Below the pieces are notes generated by a model. It was given only the letters and a program-made list of their open reading frames with translations, had not been told where the DNA came from and made no database searches. 55,905 nt of DNA, from positions 1 through 55,905 of IMG/VR virus record IMGVR_UViG_2698536580_000003. The stretch is one strand, 5' to 3'. Made by a program: the position numbers and the translations under genes. The stretch's first letter is position 1; every line of letters starts with the position of its first letter. This document shows, in pieces, positions 1 to 54,537 of the stretch. Source of the DNA: a virus (lineage: Duplodnaviria > Heunggongvirae > Uroviricota > Caudoviricetes).

Positions 1-279
1 GGTGAACGCACTATGGCGACGCTGGGGCGTCTTATGAGCCTGCTGTCACCCTTTGACGTGGTGATATGGATGACGGATGGCTGGCCGCTGTATGAATCCC
101 GCCTGAAGGGAAAGCTGCACGTAATCAGCAAGCGATATACGCAGCGAATTGAGCGGCATAACCTAAATCTGAGGCAGCACCTGGCACGGCTGGGACGGAA
201 GTCGCTGTCGTTCTCAAAATCGGTGGAGCTGCATGACAAAGTCATCGGGCATTATCTGAACATAAAACACTATCAATAA
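1..279 (+). CDS. insB: IS1 transposase InsB, C-terminal fragment (5' end outside window)
   Basis: Translation ...[50 protein letters not shown]... matches IS1 InsB C-terminus from memory. Confidence 0.9.
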
Positions 280-294
280 GTTGGAGTCATTACC
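1..294 (+). mobile_element. IS1 insertion sequence, right-hand portion (remainder outside window)
   Basis: InsB reading frame open from base 1; canonical IS1 terminal inverted repeat atcaataagttggagtcattacc ends at 294. Confidence 0.9.
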
Positions 295-855
295 CAAGTG
301 TTTAAATGGAATAACCTCTGATTCTATATCAGGATTAATACATGAAATAGCGGTAAAATAACATGCCATTTTGTAATAGTTTTCCAAATGTAAACCAGTA
401 CATTCTAAAAACTTATCTTTATAATATAATTCATCATTCAAGCAATACCAAATATACTGTCTTGTTAATGAATTGGCATTAAATTTATCAGTTGATTGAT
501 AAAGCAACTGATTTATCACCATTCGTCTAAGGCTTAGCATAACTTTATCATCAACGATTAAATTAGATGCTTCTAGTTGCAAGTTATAGATTAAGTTGAT
601 AATATCAACAAAATCATTTTTACTCATTTCTTTTGCAGGCTTTTTTTCCTTCATGCAAAACTTCCATTTCATTGCCAGATAGCAACACCAAGGGAAATTG
701 GAAACAATACCCACCTCGACATCCCTTACTTTTTGGAAGTGTTCATAAAAATTTCTCAAAAAAGAAACATCACTAAAATATGACAATCTTTTCTTAATCG
801 CATCAACTTTTATAGAATATGACACTGGTGTCATTGTTTTTATTGCCACGCTCAT
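295..855 (-). CDS. hypothetical protein, 3' end interrupted by the IS1 insertion
   Basis: ORF 214..855 with AAGG-type RBS; frame runs into the IS1 terminal repeat so the native C-terminus is lost or replaced; AT-rich; no motif recognised. Confidence 0.45.
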
Positions 856-1457
856 AAAAAACCTTTTATGATAAACATAGAGAAATATTTTATTTAAAAA
901 TTATCAAATACACGTTAATAAATATACATTTTTTAATTTTGCGTGCAACCCTATCCCCAATCAATACAAAATATTGTGCACACAAAATTGAAGAAGCCTA
1001 TAACTATAGGTGCCTACTGACACCTATCAAGAAACTTGTTCACCCCCGACACAATTTAATTTGGCGTAGCTCACAATGTTCTCCTCAGCACACCTACCCC
1101 CCACTTTATAGGACAGTTTTCATGCAGTACATGCATAAACAAAAGCTCATCAGTTCTGGTGGTTCCTCACCACGAACATGCAGATAATACCTCAAAACAT
1201 CATGTAACAATGTTGGCATTACGCCACCAGCCACAAAAAAGCCCTACCCTTAGGCTTAATGTTTGGCTTGGCTGTTGGCTTACTATAACGCCCCGCTCAC
1301 CGTCGCAGCCTGTTCGGTTTCCGCCACTGATACGGCCTCACATCATCATGCTGATAGATGTCGACGGGCTACCAGTACCATTTGCTCACCAACCCCATAT
1401 TTTCCATGTTAATCTTCTCTTTCCACATGCTTTGTATGGTAATAAGCAAAAGGAAAA

Positions 1458-1715
1458 ATGATGAACACTAAGGTGAAAGAAGCAGTAAAATGTTGGGCTT
1501 CTAGTCCAACGTGGTTTAGCAGGCATCCAATGGATACGGCGGAGTTCCGACGGGCTGTTTCAAATCTCAAGCGCATTACCCCTACCCCATCTTTCGAAGA
1601 AATCAAAGAAGCGATCATGTTCTTTGTTTCCGATGCGCCAACAATGCTAGGTACGCCGTCGGATATTCCTCAGGCGGTTCATGACTTCGCTGGAAAAATT
1701 TATAACAAGCTGTGA
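1458..1715 (+). CDS. hypothetical small protein (85 aa)
   Basis: ORF with AAGGA RBS (aaggaaaaATG); followed by hairpin. Confidence 0.4.
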   Translation: MMNTKVKEAVKCWASSPTWFSRHPMDTAEFRRAVSNLKRITPTPSFEEIKEAIMFFVSDAPTMLGTPSDIPQAVHDFAGKIYNKL

Positions 1716-1742
1716 GCAAAATGCGGGCTATCCCAGCCCGCA
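1714..1742 (-). terminator. putative intrinsic terminator hairpin between convergent genes
   Basis: Perfect 7-bp stem GCGGGCT/AGCCCGC (1723-1729 / 1735-1741) with 5-nt loop; T-run follows on minus strand. Confidence 0.5.
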
Positions 1743-1749
1743 TCCCTAA

Positions 1750-1959
1750 TTAACGCCGTAACTTGTTTGGCTTCGTCCATTGGTACGCCTTTTCGTTTTC
1801 CCGCCGCTGGTGGCGTTCCTGTTGCAGCACAACGGAAACAGGCGCTGAACACCTGTTAATTTTGCTTGCTGGTTGTTTGATTCCGGCAATGCTGCGGATC
1901 ATCTCCAGCATATCGGCTTCGGTGATGGTCATAGGTTTCCTATCAGCACTCATATCCAA
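1750..1959 (-). CDS. hypothetical small protein (69 aa)
   Basis: ORF directly downstream of 1982..2566 in same orientation; ends before terminator hairpin. Confidence 0.4.
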   Translation of the reverse strand: MDMSADRKPMTITEADMLEMIRSIAGIKQPASKINRCSAPVSVVLQQERHQRRENEKAYQWTKPNKLRR

Positions 1960-1981
1960 TTAATAAGTTCAATACAATGGA

Positions 1982-2566
1982 TTATCCCGTTTTAGTGACT
2001 AACCATTGCAGAATAACGATAATTAAATATGTTAATGTGCCAGTTCCAAGAAGTATTAATAATTGATAGCAACGTAGGGCAATATTACTAATCGATTTTT
2101 GCATCACGATATTCACTGGCTCAGCCACACACTCTTTAGATCTTATCGATAGAATACTTGGAACTTCTCTATTTATTGATAATATTTCACATTGAATAGA
2201 CTCACCAGGTGCAAGGCTTTCAAACTTGATAATATAGCGACCATCCTGTTCAATATTTTCTTCAAAATGGTGGACAGGCCAAAAATTAATATGCATTGGC
2301 TTATAGTTAAAAACCAATGAGATATTAGTAGCACTTTCTCGCCCTTCATTAACAAGAATAATAGATCGTGTATACACCAACTGTGAATTAGATATTACCT
2401 CACCATTGGCATTCCGTAAGGGTTCATTGAGAAGAAAAGTAAATCCATGCTGATAACCATAGGATAACTTTGCCTTGCTTTTAAATCTGTTATTCAGTAT
2501 CCATGTTAAAATCGTTATAAAAAAAGAAAATAGTTCTTTCCCATAAAGACTAAAAAAACTCATCAC
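1982..2566 (-). CDS. hypothetical membrane protein (N- and C-terminal hydrophobic segments)
   Basis: 194-aa ORF; hydrophobic stretches FFITILTWIL and LLILLGTGTLTYLIIVILQWLV; AT-rich. Confidence 0.5.
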   Translation of the reverse strand: MMSFFSLYGKELFSFFITILTWILNNRFKSKAKLSYGYQHGFTFLLNEPLRNANGEVISNSQLVYTRSIILVNEGRESATNISLVFNYKPMHINFWPVHHFEENIEQDGRYIIKFESLAPGESIQCEILSINREVPSILSIRSKECVAEPVNIVMQKSISNIALRCYQLLILLGTGTLTYLIIVILQWLVTKTG

Positions 2567-2685
2567 ACATTTCCTTCAGTAATCTGATTCTGCTGTCAAA
2601 GCTACCAGCACTATAGTCATTCATCCACATTGCGACAAGAAGGTTACAGCACGTCCAATCACACCTTAGGAAATCTTAGGGGGCT

Positions 2686-2960
2686 GGTTGACACTTTCCG
2701 GCTTAAGACCTTAATAAATCTTAATATCGCAGGTTGACACACTTGACACTTTTTCGCGAAAAACCTTAGCATTTCTAAGCATGGCAACTTGACATTTTTC
2801 GCGGTTTTTTCGGCTTTTTGACGTGGTAAATCTGGCACAAACCCAGTAATTGCGGGGCTTACAGCGAGGTTGACACTTTTTCGCGTTCAGAGTGTAAAGT
2901 GTCAACCTGGCAACCTGGCAAGCTGGCAAGCTGGCAAGCTGCTCAACTTGACACTTTTTG
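2686..2960. repeat. array of about 7 copies of GTTGACACTTTTTCGCG-like motif, plus a 12-bp perfect inverted repeat and a (CTGGCAAG)n octamer tandem tract
   Basis: TTGACAC at approx 2688, 2733, 2742, 2788, 2817 (variant), 2869, 2948 and inverted at 2897; GGTTGACACTTT / AAAGTGTCAACC inverted pair 2868-2879 / 2897-2908; octamers 2906-2942. Confidence 0.75.
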
Positions 2961-2963
2961 ATG

Positions 2964-3509
2964 TCATTGATGGTCTGATTTTTCCCACTCAGCCAGGGCG
3001 TTTAACCCGGCTTCACTCCATGATTCCGGTTCATCGGGATAATCACCTGCAACATAGCAGAGTTCGCAACGCAGCATACGAATTGCCAGCCTGGCATTAC
3101 CTCGCAAATTGTATTTTTCAAAGTAATGCTGCCCTTCATCATCCTCAAGGCAGATAGCACCATCATCAAGAAAGTGCACTTCCCAGCCTAATTCCCCGGC
3201 TGCATACAGCACACGCTGCTGTATGCCCTCGTCCGTTACTGGCGCAGGAATTTTACCGTCTCTGGCCTTAACTGCTTTCCAGAACTCGCCCCATGTCATT
3301 TCCAGCGTTCTTTCTGGCCACATTTCAGAAATGGTGTCTTTCCCCTGTGCTGGTGGGCTGTTCCGCTGCTCTGTCGCTTCCACATCAATTTTTTTACCGG
3401 ACATGACCACTTCGCCTTTCTCGAGCCAGTCGTAAACTGTCTGGCGGCTTACGCCTTTGTATTTGGCGTATTCGGCTTTACTCATCAACATGTAGCTCAC
3501 CTCATGCAT
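2964..3509 (-). CDS. HTH DNA-binding protein with acidic C-terminal domain (function unknown; possibly packaging or regulatory)
   Basis: N-terminal KAEYAKYKGVSRQTVYDWLEKGEV helix-turn-helix-like segment; start codon uncertain (several Met near N-terminus). Confidence 0.55.
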   Translation of the reverse strand: MHEVSYMLMSKAEYAKYKGVSRQTVYDWLEKGEVVMSGKKIDVEATEQRNSPPAQGKDTISEMWPERTLEMTWGEFWKAVKARDGKIPAPVTDEGIQQRVLYAAGELGWEVHFLDDGAICLEDDEGQHYFEKYNLRGNARLAIRMLRCELCYVAGDYPDEPESWSEAGLNALAEWEKSDHQ

Positions 3510-3590
3510 ATACGATAAAAAATAATTTCATGCGGAAAGGGAATGCGTTGTGGGTATGGAGGAAAGGGGCAATAACCGCCCCTTACTGAT

Positions 3591-3863
3591 TCAGTTGCGC
3601 CAGGATGGCTGGCTAAGCGTGGTTTTCATTACATCATTGACGACCTGTTTTACGATTTCTGTGTTGGCAGTCGTGCTTTCAACATCAACAAAGCCATAAT
3701 CGCCAATTTCCACCGTCAGGGATTCCAGTTTCTTCCCTAGAGCATCAGGCAACTCTCCACTGAACCGATGCTGAAGATTTTCCACCAGCAACGCCCTGAA
3801 TGCCTCGCTGTTCTCTTTTTTCTGCCATAGCTGGCGTTTATCCACTCTGATATTTAATTTCAC
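3591..3863 (-). CDS. hypothetical protein (90 aa)
   Basis: ORF overlapping upstream small gene by 4 bp. Confidence 0.45.
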   Translation of the reverse strand: MKLNIRVDKRQLWQKKENSEAFRALLVENLQHRFSGELPDALGKKLESLTVEIGDYGFVDVESTTANTEIVKQVVNDVMKTTLSQPSWRN

Positions 3864-4027
3864 AGTCTCACCTCTTTAAGTGCCTTATCCATCAGTTGCC
3901 GAGCGATAACATGAATCGACGGTGCCACACCAAGCACAGATTTCTGACGCTCTTCGTCCTGGATGCGTTGCAGGGCTTCGATCTGCCTCCGGGAAAGTAA
4001 AACTGGCTTTACTCCGTGATTTTTCAT
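3860..4027 (-). CDS. hypothetical small protein (about 55 aa), start trimmed from ORF 3860..4189
   Basis: Internal Met MKNHGVKPVLLSRRQIEALQ... preceded by AGGGA RBS; upstream part of the long ORF is Cys-rich and not protein-like. Confidence 0.4.
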   Translation of the reverse strand: MKNHGVKPVLLSRRQIEALQRIQDEERQKSVLGVAPSIHVIARQLMDKALKEVRL

Positions 4028-4295
4028 GATGATCCCTTCTGAATGACAATAATTGCAATTATTGCACAAATTGAAATGATACCAGAGACAATTGCAATAA
4101 ATGAAACGAAAAGCATCAATAAACCAACCTTCGGCACTGAATGCTCTGATTTTTCTGCAAAGGTATGGCAGATGCAAACATAAAGGCAATAGCAGAAGAA
4201 GCAGCGGGGAGTGAAAAGGGGAAGTTTTTATAAATACACGATTGTCGCCTCACTGCAGGTTAACAGCCACAAGCTCCATGATAATAACTTGTTAA

Positions 4296-4619
4296 TTATT
4301 TCATCAGATTTTTCATTATTTGCGCGATTGAGTACACAAGCAAAAACTCGGCAGCCGCAAGAGTATAAAAAACATAAATTCGCTTAGCCCACCGACGATG
4401 AAAGAACTCCTCAGCATGGCCGGATGTTCGAGATACAAGCCATGCACCTACTGCACACAGAGCAGGTGCAATGAGCACAGTTATAAACCAGATTGTGATG
4501 CCCATCCCATGCCTACTGATAATAGCCATTGGTATTGCAAAAATGAATGTTAGAGCAGCATTAGCTAATAGAATATCTTTTAAAGTATTTTCAATTAGTT
4601 TTGCTAGATTATCTTTCAT
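4296..4619 (-). CDS. small integral membrane protein (107 aa)
   Basis: Multiple hydrophobic helices (ALTFIFAIPMAII, ITIWFITVLIAPALCAVGAWLV, FLLVYSIAQIM). Confidence 0.55.
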   Translation of the reverse strand: MKDNLAKLIENTLKDILLANAALTFIFAIPMAIISRHGMGITIWFITVLIAPALCAVGAWLVSRTSGHAEEFFHRRWAKRIYVFYTLAAAEFLLVYSIAQIMKNLMK

Positions 4620-4683
4620 CTAATCCCCCACGTTGAACATTAATATATAAAAGCCCCTTACTAAGGGGCTTTGCACGGATTGT

Positions 4684-5826
4684 TTAAAGGGAACTTTTTT
4701 TCGCCCCTTCAATTTCTGCCTGACAAATTTCGTCATTTGTAAATGAGTACTGCAGATAGACATATCCCTGAGTGGAATTGTTCGCTCTGGCCTCAATAGA
4801 TATAGTATCAATATTGTTTTTTAATGGTATTTCTTTTGTTCCCTTCCATGTGGCAGATAAGAAGCGTTCTTTTTTGTTTAGCCCCCTCATCCAGTCCTGA
4901 GGATCTTTCCAAATTGAACCAGCCAGCAAAAAGTCTGTAGTATCAGCCTTTCCATACAGAGAACTTAAAGAATTACTCAATTCTTCAAACTTGGATTTAA
5001 GAGCCAATCCATAGCTATCAGTATCAATATTTTTTCCTAAAGCCCGTATTTGACATAAACCAGCTTTCGGGGAGATCAGCAAACCATACATTTCAAAATC
5101 TGCGTTTTGCTTCGGTAATTTATCAGAAGTATACAGATTCACACTGTCTGGTAGTGGCTTGAGCTTAGCACCGATCATATCTTCGATGTTTTTCTGTGTA
5201 AGACCGGCTTCTAAGCCAAACGGACCATCCGCTGGCGGGAGTAAAGGAAGTTGCTCTTGGGAATTTTTGGCTGTTACTTCCGTTTCAGTACTGTTTTTTG
5301 CGTCATTAGCTTGTACTGATGCCAGCTTAACTTCAGCGAGGCCATACTTGGCTGTGAGGTACTTTTGCTGCAACATTGCCATGGTCTGCTCTTCAGTGGC
5401 AACAGTAGATAATTTTAGTACCTTTATCAGACCACCACTATACTGACGAGCATCAGCTTTGGCTTCGTTGATTTTTGCATCTAAGCTGTCAATTTCAGTT
5501 TTAATTGAAGCCGCAAGCTCAGGATCAGGTTTTACTCCAGATACAACAACATCAATTTTGGCACCTGATTCAATAGCATTAATACGCTGTTCCAAAAGCG
5601 CTTTATTAGTTCCTAATATTTCCAGTCTTGCTGTTGTCAGATTTTTTATCAACCCACCAGAAAACTGCTGGTCAACTTCCTTAGCTGCTGATATTTCACC
5701 TTCCGTTTGCGACAGTTCAGCTTTAAGAGCAGCTACTTCCTGTTTCTGTTCTGGAGTTAACTCTTCTGGCCCACATCCGGTTAACATTACTATACCGACT
5801 AATGTTGCAATTAAAGTTTTATTCAT
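4684..5826 (-). CDS. lipoprotein with coiled-coil region and internal QYSGGLIK / QFSGGLIK repeats
   Basis: Signal peptide with lipobox LTGC near N-terminus (MNKTLIATLVGIVMLTGC); 380 aa. Confidence 0.7.
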   Translation of the reverse strand: MNKTLIATLVGIVMLTGCGPEELTPEQKQEVAALKAELSQTEGEISAAKEVDQQFSGGLIKNLTTARLEILGTNKALLEQRINAIESGAKIDVVVSGVKPDPELAASIKTEIDSLDAKINEAKADARQYSGGLIKVLKLSTVATEEQTMAMLQQKYLTAKYGLAEVKLASVQANDAKNSTETEVTAKNSQEQLPLLPPADGPFGLEAGLTQKNIEDMIGAKLKPLPDSVNLYTSDKLPKQNADFEMYGLLISPKAGLCQIRALGKNIDTDSYGLALKSKFEELSNSLSSLYGKADTTDFLLAGSIWKDPQDWMRGLNKKERFLSATWKGTKEIPLKNNIDTISIEARANNSTQGYVYLQYSFTNDEICQAEIEGAKKSSL

Positions 5827-5960
5827 ATCCCTATTCCAAATGAAAATATTCAGATTAATCTTATCAGGAACCCAGATGCAATTGAATATTCATCTGCTCA
5901 GCAACGTAGTAGATTTCCTCAGAAAGCATCAACAAAAAACCAAGAGAATCCCATCCTCTG

Positions 5961-6248
5961 TTACTGACTACAATTGTTCTTTTTTTGGTATTTCCTGAAT
6001 GCCTCACCATTGGGCTGATGTAATCCCATCCCGGCATGTGCCCGGCTGATGGTTTCGCGCATCTCCCCGAAATTATCCTGCCTTGCTGGTGGGCGTGCTG
6101 CCTTGTGGATACATTCCGCGCGACGTTTTGCCGCCTGTTCCCGTGCCTTGTCATCATTCGCCAGCATGATGACCTCAGCCCACCGCGCCGCCGCTCTCCG
6201 GTACAGACCACGCGCTTCCAGTGCTTCCGCTTTGCTGTCGTGAATCAT
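5961..6248 (-). CDS. PerC-family transcriptional regulator (start set at internal Met to give ATGA overlap)
   Basis: Motif LEARGLYRRAAARWAEV resembles PerC/Pch signature as recalled. Confidence 0.55.
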   Translation of the reverse strand: MIHDSKAEALEARGLYRRAAARWAEVIMLANDDKAREQAAKRRAECIHKAARPPARQDNFGEMRETISRAHAGMGLHQPNGEAFRKYQKKNNCSQ

Positions 6249-6787
6249 GCGCCTATTGTCTCCTTTGCTGCCCGGCACTGGCGTTTGCGCTTCTCATTCA
6301 GCGCCACCAGCCGCGTTTCTGCGTCCTGTTGTTCCTGTGGTGTCACCTCGCCGCACGGCTGGCCTTTCAGGTCGTAGCGTACCCCACCAGCCATTAAGGC
6401 GCGGTAATAGCGCGGACACTGCGCATAAGATGCCAGCGTCGCACGCAATGCCCCTGGCCCGAATGCCAGCCCCCTGGCGGCGAGATCCTGCATCAGGTCG
6501 TCGAATATCCCCACCTTAAGCGGCTTCAGTGCTTCCCGGCTGAATAAGTCAGGCCACAACTCAGTGAGGCGGTTAACGCGCCTGCGGTTTTTGCGCTGGC
6601 GTTTGGTCATATGCCGCCACGGTGTCGCCCCTGTAGGCTTCTGCTGCGCTTTCTGGTTACCGGGCATCACTTTATGCGCCGATGTGGTTTTATCCTGCTC
6701 CTGTGCCGCCTGCGTCGTTTTCTGCGGCGTGCCGTAAATACCTTTTGGTTTTCTGTTAATGGTCAGCTTAGTCATGCTTTGCCCCAT
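6245..6787 (-). CDS. ProQ/FinO-domain RNA-binding protein
   Basis: Segment LWPDLFS...PLKVGIFDDLMQDL...LRATLASYAQCPRYYRALMAGGVRYDLKGQPCGEVTPQEQQDAETRL parallels ProQ N-terminal FinO domain (PLKIGIFQDL...LRSALRLYTSSWRYL...RVDLDGNPCGEL) as recalled. Confidence 0.7.
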   Translation of the reverse strand: MGQSMTKLTINRKPKGIYGTPQKTTQAAQEQDKTTSAHKVMPGNQKAQQKPTGATPWRHMTKRQRKNRRRVNRLTELWPDLFSREALKPLKVGIFDDLMQDLAARGLAFGPGALRATLASYAQCPRYYRALMAGGVRYDLKGQPCGEVTPQEQQDAETRLVALNEKRKRQCRAAKETIGA

Positions 6788-6795
6788 CGTTACAA

Positions 6796-7132
6796 CTGTC
6801 TACCAACTGTCTACCGATATAATTGATTGATTTATTTAATGTTATTAACACATAACAAAAAAACAATCTGCAAACTGTCTACCAACGGTCTACCGCATTA
6901 ATACATTGATAATTAATGATTTTTACTAAATGGTAGACAGTGTAGACAGTTAAAAGAGAAATTTAAAAAATGCCCCCTTAACTATCTGTTTTTTATATAC
7001 CCCCCGTGGTTTAGGAATATAGAAATAACTGTCTACCTCTCTACTACATTGAAAATATCTTTATAATTCAAAATATTAATTGGTAGATGGTTGGTAGAGG
7101 GTTAAGTGAATCTGTCTACCAACCGTCTACCT
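6796..7132. repeat. iteron cluster, putative satellite replication origin (ori/crr-like)
   Basis: At least 10 copies of CTGTCTACC / GGTAGACAG (direct and inverted) at 6796, 6808, 6875, 6886, 6932, 6941, 7029, 7082, 7093, 7112, 7124, interspersed with AT-rich tracts, immediately downstream of the primase gene. Confidence 0.65.
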
Positions 7133-7158
7133 TTACGTTTCAGCTTATAAATTTCGTA

Positions 7159-8964
7159 TTATGTTCTGTCGTTAATCCCTGTAGCTGCTGGCAACCAGCC
7201 ATCAGCATCATCATCTAACAGAACATTTGTTATCACTCGCCCTTTATCCGGGCCTTTAGTGCATTTAGCCCGCTTATACTCCTTTCCGTATTCCGCCATA
7301 GCTCCTGGCATATCAGTACCAAAGCGTGTCAGTGATACTGGTTTTCCCAGGCCATGCGCTGACATATAGGCTAAATAAGCATGATACAGGTATCGCCTCG
7401 GGCTAAATGGCACTATTTCCGCATTGCCCACCATCATTCCTTCACATTTAACCAACGACATCAGATAGCCGCAAAAGTCCACCAGTGAATCACCTTCGCG
7501 CTTTATCAACAGCGCTTCTTCTGATTTTTGCTGCTCATAAAGTAGTCTTTTAGCTTCGTCCTGGTCGGTAAATCGTGTTAGCAAATGGCGAATCACTACC
7601 GCCAGTTCGCCTTCTATCTTTTCCGCCAGCATGGGATCGCGTTCGTTCTCCGGTACGACCTCAGAGAAATTAAATATCACCCTACGACGCGAGATCCCCC
7701 CGCTTCGGTCACTGAATGACATGGCGTTATTGTTTACCGCAAGCACTACTGCCGGAATACGTGTGGAGTAGGGGGCTTTATGTTTCGGATCAATTGCCAC
7801 CTTGTCGCCGCCAGTAATTGCCTTAATTCCTGCACCATCGCCAGCGTAGCGAGTCATATCCGGCATGATAATCAGCGAAAAGCCAACTACTAACGCGCGT
7901 TCCCTTGCGTCTTCCAGAGCCTTCATGCTTGCCGATACTGTGTTGGCCTTACCCGCCAGCATGGTACAAATCTCAGCCATCACACTTTTACCGCTTCCGC
8001 CTGGGCCTGTTACCTCAAGGAATAACTGCCAGTCGTACCGGTTCGCCAGCACCATGAATAATGCCGCCAGTACGCGATCAGCTTTACGATCATTATCTGC
8101 CACCGAACGACGCAGCCACTTCCAGAAATTCGGCGCATGTGTTGCCAGCGTTTCCCCCTCTGCTGGTGGGCTGAACGGTAATTCACTGGCATTTAACAAC
8201 CAGTCATTTTTGTTATGCTCCCGAAAATTTCCCGTCCGGGTATCAAATACCCCGTTACTGAATCCAATAAGATTCCTGTCTGCCCCGCCCATAACAGGCA
8301 GGCTCAATTTCATTGTGTCTACGGCAAATTTAATGGCGTTTTGCGAATAACTGATTCCAGCATCAATAAAAATCTTCGCCATAGACCGCTGGAGTTCCTT
8401 ATCAGATACAGGCACCCAGACAATTCCGTTGTAATGGTGAACTACATCAGAATCATCATTTATAGCCAGTGCTCTTCCATAATATTCAAGTAACACTTCC
8501 CCTCTCTGGCTGGCTCCCATCTGATTTAGTGCTGGCCTAGATAGGTCAATATTTTTTGTGGCTAATTTCATCGCTGAAACTTCCCCACTCTCTGCCTGTT
8601 CGCGGATCCGTTGCAGGTAGTCGCGCCAGTTTTCCGGCTCCCGGTCGGTGATACCTTTGTATAATTTCGCGTCCTGTACACCAGCCAGCGCCAGCTTTTC
8701 AGCAATAGCATTGATCTGGATTGGCTCTATCTCCCCCGCGAGATAGACACGCGCAAAGCGGCGTTCATCGTCGACAATGCGGATATTCGCCAGGTCTGCC
8801 AGTTGCTTTGGCCCCAGGTAAACAGGAGGCACGTTATCGCCGTGTTTTCGTCCTTCGCTTTCAATCCAGTGTTGAGCATGGGCGTAAGCATCCGTCCCAG
8901 CAAAAATGATTACCTCGGTGAATTTATCCTTCGGCTGATATTTTAAATTCGGTGCGTTTTTCAC
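7159..8964 (-). CDS. P4 alpha-like primase/helicase (D5-type NTPase)
   Basis: 601 aa; Walker A TGPGGSGKSV; overall resemblance to satellite-phage primases. Confidence 0.8.
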   Translation of the reverse strand: MKNAPNLKYQPKDKFTEVIIFAGTDAYAHAQHWIESEGRKHGDNVPPVYLGPKQLADLANIRIVDDERRFARVYLAGEIEPIQINAIAEKLALAGVQDAKLYKGITDREPENWRDYLQRIREQAESGEVSAMKLATKNIDLSRPALNQMGASQRGEVLLEYYGRALAINDDSDVVHHYNGIVWVPVSDKELQRSMAKIFIDAGISYSQNAIKFAVDTMKLSLPVMGGADRNLIGFSNGVFDTRTGNFREHNKNDWLLNASELPFSPPAEGETLATHAPNFWKWLRRSVADNDRKADRVLAALFMVLANRYDWQLFLEVTGPGGSGKSVMAEICTMLAGKANTVSASMKALEDARERALVVGFSLIIMPDMTRYAGDGAGIKAITGGDKVAIDPKHKAPYSTRIPAVVLAVNNNAMSFSDRSGGISRRRVIFNFSEVVPENERDPMLAEKIEGELAVVIRHLLTRFTDQDEAKRLLYEQQKSEEALLIKREGDSLVDFCGYLMSLVKCEGMMVGNAEIVPFSPRRYLYHAYLAYMSAHGLGKPVSLTRFGTDMPGAMAEYGKEYKRAKCTKGPDKGRVITNVLLDDDADGWLPAATGINDRT

Positions 8965-54459: not shown

Positions 54460-54507
54460 AATGGTGCCGATAATAGGAGTCGAACCTACGACCTTCGCAT
54501 TACGAAT
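54460..54507. repeat. att direct repeat (within tRNA-Thr 3' half), partner of 15356-15403
   Basis: 48-bp identity to 15356-15403. Confidence 0.85.
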
Positions 54508-54537
54508 GCGCTGCTCTACCAACTGAGCTATATCGGC
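54462..54537 (-). tRNA. thrW: tRNA-Thr (anticodon CGU)
   Basis: Reverse complement reads GCCGATATAGCTCAGTTGGTAGAGCAGCGCATTCGTAATGCGAAGGTCGTAGGTTCGACTCCTATTATCGGCACCA, a 76-nt cloverleaf with CGT anticodon. Confidence 0.9.

What the first reader, a model, noticed from the sequence alone, without database searches (positions are those of the whole stretch)
6245..6787. ProQ/FinO-domain RNA chaperone encoded on the satellite next to its origin
The 180-aa protein has a segment closely paralleling the ProQ N-terminal FinO domain (PLK(V/I)GIF(D/Q)DL ... YDLKGQPCGE versus ProQ VDLDGNPCGE), preceded by a basic N-terminal extension. A mobile-element-encoded FinO-family protein could control satellite or helper gene expression post-transcriptionally, or compete with host ProQ.
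Basis: partly seen in the sequence, partly recalled or inferred. Interest (0 to 1): 0.5.

Follow-up and report, generated by a model that had tools for sequence, protein, structure and literature searches.

The report
FinO-domain RNA binder on a phage satellite
A small gene on an E. coli phage satellite encodes a genuine FinO/ProQ-type RNA-binding protein; RefSeq already names it as such and it is common in E. coli islands, but its RNA targets and role have not been studied.

Summary
Window 6245-6787 (-) is a real gene, with the conserved start at 6775 (176 aa). Its C-terminal two thirds form a FinO/ProQ domain: Pfam PF04352 E=2.5e-23, and the top 27 Foldseek hits to the AlphaFold model are all FinO-domain structures. 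The 3'-end pocket residues (Tyr127, Arg137, Gly93) and the N-cap arginine (Arg115) are kept. The N-cap Ser-Lys-Thr is replaced by Gly-x-Gly across the subfamily. A basic, disordered N-terminal extension precedes the domain.

The gene lies on an int-alpA-primase satellite at thrW, 20 nt from an AT-rich iteron origin. Its stop overlaps the start of a PerC-family gene by 4 nt.

It is not new as an annotation. RefSeq calls it "ProQ/FINO family protein". Relatives occur in 1159 of 5426 complete E. coli genomes, always on the chromosome.

It is an optional cargo gene. Only 20 of 55 related satellites carry it, and many others have an SSB gene in that slot. It is under purifying selection (dN/dS 0.14-0.32).

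It is not an orthologue of ProQ, FinO or FopA (about 30% identity). No RNA partner could be identified. A conserved terminator-bearing RNA-like element on the same satellite is a candidate ligand but does not co-vary with the gene.

Verdict: an uncharacterised new member of a known family, of moderate interest.

The parts
6245..6775 (-). ProQ/FinO-family gene, 176 aa from the conserved ATG. The longest ORF extends to an unconserved ATG at 6787 (180 aa).
   Evidence: ORF. RefSeq CDS WP_000164225.1. Met5 is invariant in 21 homologues. Upstream codons are not conserved. dN/dS is 0.14-0.32.
6278..6586 (-). FinO/ProQ domain (aa 68-170 in 180-aa numbering). Carries Gly93, Arg115, Tyr127 and Arg137, with Gly110-Pro111-Gly112 at the helix N-cap.
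   Evidence: Pfam PF04352 E=2.5e-23. PDB profile hits to ProQ, FinO, RocC and NMB1681. AlphaFold pLDDT is about 90 over aa 57-180. Foldseek top 27 hits are all FinO-domain structures, TM up to 0.84.
6587..6775 (-). Basic N-terminal extension. Aa 5-56 are predicted disordered and rich in Lys/Gln/Thr. Aa 62-77 form the basic helix TKRQRKNRRRVNRLTE leading into the domain.
   Evidence: pLDDT is below 50 for aa 14-52, with a helix at 62-77. The region is conserved in the family and under purifying selection (N-terminal dN/dS 0.0-0.5).
5961..6248 (-). PerC-family regulator gene. Its ATG overlaps the ProQ/FinO stop codon (ATGA at 6248-6245).
   Evidence: Pfam PF06069 E=1.8e-31. Overlap read from the sequence. 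RefSeq CDS. PerC follows the ProQ gene in 18 of 20 related satellites.
5931..5960 (-). Weak hairpin plus U6 directly after perC (CAGAGGAUGGGAUUCUCUUGGUUUUUUG). Relatives have a strong intrinsic terminator at this position.
   Evidence: Sequence. Relatives carry GCCGGGAUUUUUCCCGGCUUUUUU or GCCGGAACACUCCGGCUUUUUUU right after the perC stop.
6790..7135 (.). Replication origin of the satellite: paired 11-nt iterons (AACTGTCTACC) in both orientations within 28% G+C DNA.
   Evidence: Repeat families. Nine of the 17 window matches to CTGTCTACC cluster here, against 6.35 expected for the whole window. G+C profile.
7159..8964 (-). D5/P4-type primase-helicase (replication initiator), 601 aa.
   Evidence: Pfam D5_N, DUF5906 and Pox_D5. 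TIGR01613. PHROG 864 DNA primase E=1e-156.
12708..12905 (-). alpA-type regulator gene of the satellite.
   Evidence: Pfam PF05930 Phage_AlpA E=2.4e-19.
13977..15191 (-). Tyrosine integrase of the satellite.
   Evidence: Pfam Arm-DNA-bind_3, Phage_int_M and Phage_integrase. RefSeq annotation.
15358..15404 (.). att core: a copy of the 3' part of tRNA-Thr. It marks the junction between the satellite and the neighbouring SfIV-like prophage.
   Evidence: A 47-48 nt exact repeat of 54460-54507. tRNA-Thr lies at 54462-54537.
11385..11488 (+). Candidate ligand only. A conserved RNA-like element on the strand opposite the satellite operons, made of a 5' hairpin, a variable linker and an intrinsic terminator with a U-tail.
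   Evidence: MFE -44.1 kcal/mol, z=-4.5 on the + strand against z=-1.5 on the - strand. Found in 1004 of 5426 E. coli genomes and in at least 119 IMG/VR contigs. Terminator variants keep pairing. No Rfam family matches. It does not co-vary with the ProQ gene.

Best explanation
The gene encodes a FinO-domain RNA-binding protein carried as optional cargo by a phage-inducible chromosomal island (PICI-type satellite) at thrW.

Shown:
- It has the FinO fold.
- It keeps the pocket that, in RocC, FinO and ProQ, holds the 3'-terminal nucleotide of an intrinsic-terminator RNA (Tyr127, Arg137, Gly93).
- It keeps the arginine of the helix N-cap that reads the hairpin backbone (Arg115).
- It carries a conserved, strongly basic N-terminal extension and a long C-terminal helix.
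- It is under purifying selection.
- It is the first gene after the replication origin.
- Its stop codon overlaps the start of a PerC-family regulator gene.
- In relatives the two-gene cassette ends in its own terminator.

Inferred:
- The protein binds RNAs through a terminator hairpin plus 3' U-tail. It then protects them or helps them pair with a target, using the basic extension as FinO uses its N-terminus.
- Together with PerC it forms a small regulatory cassette, one post-transcriptional and one transcriptional regulator. The cassette would be expressed with, or just after, the satellite replication genes.
- Its likely substrates are transcripts of the satellite itself, of a helper phage or of the host. 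Satellite candidates are the 3' end of the cassette's own mRNA and the conserved terminator-bearing RNA-like element at 11385-11488.
- It is not needed for the core satellite life cycle, because most related satellites lack it.
For: Domain: Pfam PF04352 E=2.5e-23, 82.5 bits. The family profile hits ProQ at 2.5e-19, FinO at 2.8e-17 and RocC at 1.3e-13.

Fold: AlphaFold pLDDT is about 90 for aa 57-180. The top 27 Foldseek PDB hits are all FinO-domain structures, the best being RocC 7rgt with TM 0.84 and rmsd 2.3.

Residues, with RocC roles taken from PMC9674577 and mapped through:
- RocC Tyr87 maps to Y127.
- RocC Arg97 maps to R137, invariant in the family.
- RocC Gly52 maps to G93, invariant.
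- RocC Arg75 maps to R115, at least 90% conserved.
- The model helix starts at residue 111, the same place as the RocC N-cap helix.

Selection: dN/dS is 0.14-0.32 in nine pairwise comparisons, including the disordered N-terminus.

Cassette:
- ATGA overlap with perC.
- PerC follows ProQ in 18 of 20 satellites.
- Strong terminators follow perC in relatives.
- G+C is 60-64% in the cassette against 28-48% in the flanks.

Optional cargo: 20 of 55 non-redundant related satellites carry it.

Satellite identity:
- int, alpA, primase and iteron ori are present.
- The att core is repeated.
- EcCIMP1 is a similarly organised element at the same thrW site. It has been shown experimentally to be a helper-mobilised PICI (PMC11773190).

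Precedent: plasmid FinO-domain proteins act on element-encoded antisense RNAs. Examples are FinO with FinP, and FopA with Inc/repZ (PMC7491321 and PMC9977716).
Against: - No RNA binding was or could be tested here.
- The N-cap Ser-Lys-Thr of RocC, ProQ and FinO is replaced by Gly110-Pro111-Gly112 (family consensus G-x-G). ProQ Lys54 and Arg62 are not conserved. Affinity or specificity may therefore differ.
- No partner RNA was found. There is no Rfam hit in the satellite.
- The one conserved RNA-like element occurs in many satellites that lack the gene. It is absent from five ProQ-bearing loci: L002, L004 and L006-L008.
- The same protein subfamily also sits in large CP4-57-type islands without PerC, primase or ori. 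Any role tied to satellite replication cannot be general.
- No promoter for the cassette was identified.
Confidence: 0.6

Rival explanations
1. Dedicated partner of the satellite's own conserved RNA-like element (11385-11488, + strand). The FinO-domain protein would bind that RNA's terminator and stabilise it or help it act. This would be a FinO/FinP-like pair controlling the satellite's early or replication operon.
For: - The element has the hairpin-plus-U-tail that FinO domains recognise.
- It folds far better than shuffles, on one strand only (z=-4.5 against -1.5).
- It is conserved across at least 60 sequence variants, with pairing-preserving changes in the terminator.
- It lies on the strand opposite the alpA and replication operons, like plasmid antisense regulators.
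- It is present in all PICI-type ProQ loci first examined except L002 and L004.
Against: - Only 20 of 55 satellites with the element carry the ProQ gene.
- ProQ-bearing loci L002, L004 and L006-L008 lack the element.
- No variant of the element tracks the presence of the gene.
- The invariant core of the element contains a Chi site, and the satellite family is strongly Chi-enriched. Part of its conservation may therefore act at the DNA level.
Confidence: 0.15
2. Copy-number control of the satellite, as FopA (and, from my memory, PcnR) do for IncI plasmids. The protein would help an antisense RNA repress translation of the primase/initiator gene beside which it is encoded.
For: - The gene is the first one after the origin, directly downstream of the primase.
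- P4 keeps its copy-number gene cnr in the equivalent place. This rests on my own knowledge and was not checked here.
- FopA's main ligand is the Inc antisense RNA of repZ (PMC7491321).
Against: - No antisense promoter-terminator unit stands out opposite the primase operon. Only weak 5-6 bp hairpins are found, and the total terminator count is 23 against 14.8 +/- 4.2 expected.
- The genes upstream of the primase overlap one another, leaving no leader.
- Most satellites with the same primase types lack the gene.
- The subfamily also occurs in islands without a primase or ori.
Confidence: 0.1
3. Interference with host or plasmid FinO-domain networks. One version is a CTD-less mimic that competes with chromosomal ProQ for its ligands. 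Another is a surrogate FinO that stabilises FinP of co-resident F-like plasmids and so inhibits conjugation.
For: - The domain is about equally similar to FinO (NCBIfam 57.8 bits) and ProQ (54.2 bits).
- The terminator-binding pocket is conserved.
- Cross-talk between FinO-domain proteins and foreign RNAs is documented: RepX with FinO, and RocRp with RocC (PMC9977716).
Against: There is no direct evidence. Identity to ProQ and FinO is only about 28-33%. The N-cap motif differs. FinO-domain proteins in one cell are reported to keep distinct target sets (PMC7491321).
Confidence: 0.08
4. A single-stranded nucleic-acid or DNA-end binding role in replication or packaging, functionally alternating with the SSB gene in the same slot.
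For: The slot after the origin holds SSB alone in 22 of 55 related satellites and ProQ without SSB in 16. Both occur together in only 4.
Against: FinO domains are known only as RNA binders, and the RocC N-cap imposes a preference for hairpin RNA (PMC9674577). Four satellites, and several genomic loci (L005, L010-L017), carry both genes side by side. The slot is simply where the variable cargo begins.
Confidence: 0.05

Closest known systems
FinO (F-like plasmids, PDB 1dvo)
   Same: It has the same domain and fold: profile E=2.8e-17 and Foldseek rmsd 1.9 over 102 columns. The architecture also matches: a basic N-terminal part, the FinO core and a long C-terminal helix, with no extra domain. Both are encoded on mobile elements.
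   Different: Identity is about 28-31%. The NCBIfam FinO model scores 57.8 bits against a cut-off of 136. The gene is chromosomal, on a satellite, and not at the end of a tra operon. No FinP/traJ-like pair is nearby. The N-cap Ser is replaced by Gly.
FopA/YafB (IncI plasmid pCol1B9)
   Same: Both are small FinO-domain proteins of mobile elements, about 180-200 aa. Both have a distinct N-terminal region with stretches of positive charge and no ProQ C-terminal domain (PMC7491321). Both are encoded near a replication module.
   Different: Identity is only 32% over the domain (BLASTP E=2e-8). There is no Inc/repZ system here. FopA lacks the N-cap arginine that this protein keeps (alignment).
ProQ (E. 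coli chromosome, N-terminal domain, PDB 5nb9)
   Same: It is the best sequence match among solved structures (E=6.9e-12, or 2.5e-19 with the family profile). The equivalents of ProQ Lys35, Arg58, Arg69, Tyr70 and Arg80 are conserved.
   Different: There is no linker and no Tudor-like C-terminal domain. The NCBIfam ProQ equivalog scores 54.2 bits against a cut-off of 127. ProQ Lys54 and Arg62 are not conserved. It has a basic N-terminal extension that ProQ lacks.
RocC (Legionella, PDB 7rgt/7rgu), the only FinO domain solved with RNA
   Same: The fold matches, with TM 0.84 normalised to the target. The 3'-nucleotide pocket residues (Tyr, Arg, Gly) and the N-cap Arg are conserved.
   Different: The N-cap Ser70-Lys71-Ser72 becomes Gly-Pro-Gly. 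RocC Thr82 and Arg83 become Ala and Gln. There is no RocC C-terminal region and no RocR-like partner is known.
PICI-type satellites of Enterobacteriaceae (EcCIMP1; Enterobacter PICI AVS0889)
   Same: EcCIMP1 occupies the same thrW site. It has a closely similar integrase and int-alpA-ant-ash/icd-primase-cargo order with a PerC-family gene, and it is mobilised by a helper phage (PMC11773190). A ProQ/FinO-like gene has been listed in an Enterobacter PICI (PMC13612085).
   Different: EcCIMP1 has no ProQ/FinO gene. The Enterobacter mention is an annotation only. No PICI-borne FinO-domain protein has been studied in the papers I could search.

Membership tests
FinO/ProQ domain family (PF04352) | Profile match above the curated threshold | tested here: met
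   82.5 bits against a cut-off of 27, E=2.5e-23, covering 102 of 109 profile positions.
FinO/ProQ domain family (PF04352) | FinO fold | tested here: met
   The AlphaFold model has pLDDT of about 90 over aa 57-180. The top 27 Foldseek PDB hits are NMB1681, RocC, FinO, Lpp1663 and ProQ. This is a predicted structure, not a solved one.
FinO/ProQ domain family (PF04352) | 3'-nucleotide pocket: conserved Tyr, Arg and beta-turn Gly (RocC Tyr87, Arg97, Gly52) | tested here: met
   Y127, R137 and G93 occupy these positions. R137 and G93 are invariant and Y127 is at least 90% conserved in 21 homologues.
FinO/ProQ domain family (PF04352) | Helix N-cap motif (Ser/Thr cap, Lys, conserved Arg; RocC Ser70, Lys71, Arg75) | tested here: inconclusive
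   The Arg is kept (R115) and the model helix starts at the same position. The cap residues, however, are Gly110-Pro111-Gly112, with family consensus G-x-G. Backbone-amide contacts could persist, but the side-chain contacts of Ser and Lys cannot.
FinO/ProQ domain family (PF04352) | Binds hairpin-plus-3'-tail RNA | not testable with these tools
   This needs gel-shift, three-hybrid or CLIP experiments.
ProQ proper (chromosomal global RNA chaperone) | N-terminal FinO domain plus linker plus Tudor-like C-terminal domain; NCBIfam equivalog PRK04950 | tested here: not met
   The protein ends 10 residues after the domain and no C-terminal domain is detected. It scores 54.2 bits against a cut-off of 127.
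FinO proper (fertility inhibition of F-like plasmids) | NCBIfam PRK13754 above cut-off; encoded in a tra region alongside FinP/traJ | tested here: not met
   It scores 57.8 bits against a cut-off of 136. All 1637 places in E. coli are chromosomal. Plasmid matches are below 40% identity, except one record that is a mislabelled chromosome.
FopA branch | Close sequence relationship to pCol1B9 FopA and co-occurrence with Inc/repZ | tested here: not met
   Identity is 32% over 112 aa. No RepZ-type replicon is present; the replication gene here is a D5/P4-type primase.
PICI-type phage satellite (Gram-negative) | Integrase plus att repeats at a tRNA gene | tested here: met
   The integrase lies at 13977-15191. 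The 47-nt tRNA-Thr core is repeated at 15358-15404 and 54460-54507. The far (left) end lies outside the window, and in L001 it is degenerate.
PICI-type phage satellite (Gram-negative) | alpA regulator, primase/replication initiator and adjacent iteron origin | tested here: met
   AlpA matches with E=2.4e-19. The primase is supported. The iterons are supported.
PICI-type phage satellite (Gram-negative) | No phage structural or lysis genes; size about 10-17 kb | tested here: met
   None of the ORFs scanned against Pfam, PHROGs or PADLOC is structural. RefSeq lists none either. The element spans about 17 kb in L001. Not every small ORF was scanned.
PICI-type phage satellite (Gram-negative) | Induction and packaging by a helper phage | not testable with these tools
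   This has been shown only for the related EcCIMP1 at the same site (PMC11773190). Whether the adjacent SfIV-like prophage is a helper is unknown.

The most novel reading that the evidence does not exclude
The FinO-domain protein could be the protein half of an RNA-based regulatory switch of a phage satellite. In that case it would load a satellite- or helper-encoded terminator-bearing RNA onto a target. The conserved RNA-like element at 11385-11488 is one candidate RNA. The target would be in the helper phage or in the satellite's own early operon. Together with the translationally coupled PerC-type regulator, the protein would then set when the satellite replicates or how it interferes with its helper. 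This would be the first FinOP-like system outside plasmids and the first RNA chaperone shown to act in satellite-helper conflict.
Probability: 0.15. Interest if true: 0.7.

Novelty: new member of a known kind. Interest (0 to 1): 0.36.

Why it matters
FinO-domain proteins are one of the three main classes of bacterial RNA chaperone. The characterised members are chromosomal (ProQ, RocC, NMB1681) or plasmid-borne (FinO, FopA).

This subfamily is distinct from all of them and is confined to integrated elements. It is also common: blastn-detectable relatives occur in about one in five complete E. coli genomes, sometimes in several copies. Yet I found no experimental work on it.

If it binds RNA as predicted, many clinical and commensal E. 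coli carry an extra, horizontally moving RNA chaperone. That could alter sRNA networks, satellite-helper interactions or virulence regulation, since it travels with a PerC-type regulator. A related PerC-type gene on EcCIMP1 silences LEE1.

The Gly-x-Gly N-cap also offers a natural test of how much the Ser/Lys cap contributes to terminator recognition.

In itself, though, the finding is a correct domain assignment that public annotation already makes.

Tried and rejected
1. Known RNA partner. Rfam searches of 1-16000 (E<=1) and of 11330-11540 (E<=10) returned only chance-level hits. There was no C4/CI-type or other phage RNA.

2. P4 CI-RNA homology of the conserved RNA-like element. The phage collection gave no match except a 33-nt stretch in an unannotated faecal contig.

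3. Co-occurrence of the RNA-like element with the ProQ gene. The element is a core feature of the satellite family and the gene is not. An obligate pairing is therefore rejected.

4. Trans target of the RNA-like element inside the ProQ mRNA.
   - A duplex scan found an 11-nt perfect complement at 6301-6311.
   - The same 11-mer occurs in the SSB gene of other satellites.
   - I rejected this as evidence of targeting because the shared core is the Chi octamer GCTGGTGG.
   - Chi is massively over-represented in the window: 25 sites against 1.6 expected, 13 of them in the satellite.
   - It is also over-represented in 119 related satellite contigs, at 0.88 per kb.

5. Defence-system membership. 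PADLOC has no hit for the ProQ, PerC or neighbouring proteins.

6. Plasmid or phage origin. The closest true plasmid and phage homologues are at or below 40% identity.

7. Antisense unit opposite the primase operon. Only weak terminator-like hairpins were found, and the promoter count is below the shuffle mean.

8. The 512-aa ORF at 10250-11788 (-). It has no family match and overlaps annotated + strand genes, so I treated it as spurious.

9. The genome-contig scan with the family alignment returned only three loci. Context was therefore taken from E. coli RefSeq genomes, the look-up of encoding contigs and IMG/VR instead.

10. A full-text search for the element's core sequence found no paper.
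Full report
THE OBSERVATION. Window 6245..6787 (-) is an open reading frame of 180 codons. Pfam's ProQ/FinO model (PF04352) matches residues 68-170 with E=2.5e-23 and 82.5 bits, against a cut-off of 27. NCBIfam gives sub-threshold matches of similar strength to FinO (57.8 bits) and ProQ (54.2 bits). Against PDB sequences the protein hits the ProQ N-terminal domain (6.9e-12), NMB1681, FinO and RocC. A profile of 21 homologues raises these to 2.5e-19 for ProQ, 2.8e-17 for FinO and 1.3e-13 for RocC. The first ATG is not conserved. Met5 (ATG at 6775) is invariant and is the RefSeq start, so the protein is most likely 176 aa.

FOLD AND RNA-CONTACT RESIDUES. An AlphaFold model built on the family alignment is confident over residues 57-180 (pLDDT about 90) and disordered over residues 14-52. 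Its 27 best Foldseek matches in the PDB are all FinO-domain structures. The best is RocC 7rgt, with TM 0.84 and rmsd 2.3 A. I took residue roles from the RocC-RNA structure paper (PMC9674577) and mapped them through the alignments.
- The pocket for the 3'-terminal nucleotide is intact. RocC Tyr87, Arg97 and Gly52 correspond to Y127, R137 and G93. R137 and G93 are invariant in the family.
- The N-cap arginine is kept (Arg75 corresponds to R115).
- The equivalents of ProQ Lys35 and Arg69 are also kept.
- The N-cap itself differs. Ser-Lys-Ser/Thr is replaced by Gly110-Pro111-Gly112, and the whole subfamily has G-x-G here.
- ProQ Lys54 and Arg62 have no equivalent.
- The predicted helix still begins at residue 111, where the cap helix of RocC begins. 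Backbone contacts may therefore survive.

HOW COMMON IT IS AND WHAT IS ALREADY KNOWN. The window is E. coli chromosome and is 100% identical to strain K56-43-un over 5900-7200. RefSeq already labels the gene "ProQ/FINO family protein" (WP_000164225.1).
- A search of 5.8 billion proteins returned 196 relatives. They come from Escherichia, Shigella, Salmonella and Citrobacter, and nearly all carry PF04352.
- blastn finds relatives in 1159 of 5426 complete E. coli genomes, at 1637 places. All are chromosomal, with up to nine per genome.
- True plasmids and phage genomes hold only distant relatives, at or below 40% identity.
- FopA of pCol1B9 is 32% identical over the domain.
- dN/dS against nine relatives is 0.14-0.32. 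The predicted-disordered N-terminus is also under constraint.

In the searchable literature I found only an annotation-level mention of a ProQ/FinO-like gene in an Enterobacter PICI (PMC13612085). A review also remarks that phage- or plasmid-derived FinO genes have entered chromosomes (PMC9977716). I found no functional study.

THE ELEMENT. Reading on the minus strand, the order of features is as follows.
- Integrase, 13977-15191.
- A hypothetical gene.
- alpA, 12708-12905 (PF05930, E=2.4e-19).
- An AntA/AntB antirepressor.
- An Icd-like region and small ORFs.
- DUF4222.
- A D5/P4-type primase-helicase, 7159-8964.
- An AT-rich region with paired iterons, 6790-7135.
- The ProQ/FinO gene.
- PerC.
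- Cargo, which includes GapS1 in the RefSeq annotation.

This order rests.

The 47-nt 3' part of tRNA-Thr is repeated at 15358-15404 and at the tRNA gene (54462-54537). Between the two repeats lies a prophage 97-98% identical to Shigella phages SfIV, SfI and SfII over its late region. The satellite and a serotype-converting prophage therefore sit in tandem at thrW.

EcCIMP1 occupies the same site in E. coli MP1, with a near-identical integrase and the same general order. It has been shown experimentally to be a helper-mobilised PICI. It carries PerC but no ProQ/FinO gene (PMC11773190).

ANATOMY OF THE CASSETTE. The ProQ/FinO stop and the perC start overlap as ATGA (6248-6245). The two genes are 60-64% G+C, between flanks of 28-48%. 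In relatives a strong intrinsic terminator follows the perC stop codon directly, whereas the window has a weak version.

I collected related satellites independently of this gene, through a conserved non-coding element (see the next section). Among 55 non-redundant ones, the slot after the origin holds:
- SSB alone in 22;
- ProQ plus PerC in 16;
- SSB plus PerC in 6;
- SSB plus ProQ, with or without PerC, in 4;
- none of these in 7.

The gene is therefore optional cargo at the start of the variable region, usually travelling with perC. The same protein subfamily (64-65% protein identity to the window's protein) also occurs in large CP4-57-type islands. There it lies convergent with an unrelated gene, without PerC, primase or ori.

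LOOKING FOR A PARTNER RNA. Rfam finds nothing in the satellite. I noticed a conserved element of about 105 nt at 11385-11488, on the + strand, opposite to the satellite operons. It lies just after two small + strand ORFs.
- It consists of a 5' hairpin, a variable linker and an intrinsic terminator with a U-tail.
- It folds with z=-4.5 on the + strand but only -1.5 on the - strand.
- It occurs in 1004 of 5426 E. coli genomes and in at least 119 IMG/VR contigs, mostly satellite-sized.
- It has 60 variants, with wobble-to-Watson-Crick changes and two terminator types related by a G-C to C-G swap.

This is the kind of RNA a FinO domain binds. However, it is present in many satellites without the gene and absent from several loci with it. 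It is a candidate ligand and no more.

An apparent 11-nt complementarity between this element and the ProQ mRNA recurs in the SSB gene of other satellites. It turned out to be centred on the Chi octamer. Chi is about 16-fold over-represented in the window (25 sites against 1.6 expected; 13 lie in the 15.4-kb satellite). It occurs at 0.88 per kb in 1.2 Mb of related satellite contigs. I therefore do not count the complementarity as evidence of RNA targeting.

MOST LIKELY MECHANISM. Shown: a FinO-fold protein with an intact 3'-end pocket, a conserved basic extension, purifying selection, and translational coupling to a PerC-type regulator. It sits in a self-contained cargo cassette next to the origin of a PICI-type satellite.

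Inferred from what is established for FinO, FopA, ProQ and RocC: it binds terminator hairpins with a 3' tail, then stabilises RNAs or promotes RNA-RNA pairing. Whether it acts on satellite, helper or host transcripts is open.

Rivals are listed with their own refutation tests. They are a dedicated pairing with the 11385-11488 RNA, FopA-like copy-number control, competition with ProQ or substitution for FinO, and an SSB-like role.

COMPARISON AND VERDICT. The protein works like a FinO-domain RNA binder and is a member of PF04352. It fails the membership tests for ProQ proper, FinO proper and the FopA branch. It is best described as a distinct FinO-domain subfamily of integrated elements, with FinO/FopA-like architecture and a Gly-x-Gly N-cap.

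What is new is context:
- the gene is widespread and selected;
- it is satellite-borne and optional;
- it is usually coupled to PerC;
- it alternates with SSB in the slot after the origin.

I rate it a new member of a known kind, of moderate interest.

Noticed in passing
window 11385-11488 (+); also L003, L005, L010-L017 and at least 119 IMG/VR contigs (listed as L019-L098; loci up to L137 were read): A conserved RNA-like element of about 105 nt lies on the strand opposite the satellite operons. It has an invariant 5' hairpin (CAUUGCCCACCAGCCGCAAAUNUGGCAUUGUUGG), a modular linker and an intrinsic terminator in two compensating versions. It folds with z=-4.5 on this strand only, matches no Rfam family and its core sequence appears in no searchable paper. 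It directly follows small RHH-like ORFs, so it could be a 3'UTR-derived sRNA of the satellite's reverse-direction (repressor-like) transcription unit.
   Followed up: partly
window 1-15404 (13 sites) and the whole window (25 sites); IMG/VR satellite loci from L019 onward (L138 excluded): The Chi octamer GCTGGTGG is strongly over-represented. The window has 25 sites against 1.6 expected from shuffles. The satellite has 1 per 1.2 kb, in both orientations. Related satellite contigs have 0.88 per kb across 1.2 Mb, about four times the E. coli average as I recall it. Two sites lie inside the ProQ/FinO gene, one in perC and one in the invariant core of the RNA-like element. This suggests selection for protection from RecBCD.
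   Followed up: partly
window 15358-15404, 15405-54461 and 54462-54537: There is tandem occupancy of thrW. A prophage of about 39 kb lies between the tRNA-Thr gene and a repeated 47-nt att core, followed by the satellite. Its late region is 97-98% identical to Shigella serotype-converting phages SfIV, SfI and SfII. In strain K56-43-un the same satellite abuts thrW directly, without the prophage. Whether this prophage is a helper is unknown.
   Followed up: partly
related satellites; L010 7539-7964, L016 7521-7958: The first gene slot after the origin alternates between an SSB-family gene and the ProQ/FinO gene. SSB alone occurs in 22 satellites and ProQ without SSB in 16. Both occur together in 4, and 13 have no ProQ (6 of them SSB plus PerC, 7 none of the three genes).
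   Followed up: partly
window 10700-10800: A divergent control region lies between the Icd/ash-side operon (-) and a small + strand ORF (10803-11108; YlcI/YnfO family, RHH-like by eye). It contains repeated operator-like motifs: TGAATCACA at 10727-10735 and 10772-10780, and its inverse TGTGATTC at 10750-10757. A stable hairpin lies in the minus-strand leader at 10640-10680.
   Followed up: no
window 1208-1243: A partial, rearranged second copy of the 5' arm of the RNA-like element (CATTACGCCACCAGCCACAAAAAA) lies next to a minus-strand terminator-like hairpin at 1239-1257. It sits in the cargo region and also contains a Chi site. The same sequence was seen only in L001 and L057.
   Followed up: no
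window 5900-6700: The ProQ/FinO-PerC cassette is 60-64% G+C, far above its flanks (28-48%) and above E. coli overall. This fits a separately acquired module.
   Followed up: no
window 7159-8964 against L001 13260-15066: The primase-helicase gene is intact in the window (601 aa, the same length as in L002, L040 and L083). In the otherwise identical strain K56-43-un it is annotated as frameshifted (1807 nt).
   Followed up: no
window 10250-11788 (-): A 512-codon ORF runs antisense to two annotated + strand genes and across the RNA-like element. It has no family match and is probably not a gene, though its length is unusual.
   Followed up: partly
L006, L007, L008 (E. coli CP4-57-type islands): The same FinO-domain subfamily (64-65% protein identity to the window's protein) sits in large pathogenicity or resistance islands. 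It lies tail-to-tail with a conserved 178-aa hypothetical gene, the stop codons 2 nt apart. Nearby are an AlpA-like HTH gene and inovirus-Gp2, YfjI, YagK and Rpn genes. One copy is frameshifted.
   Followed up: no
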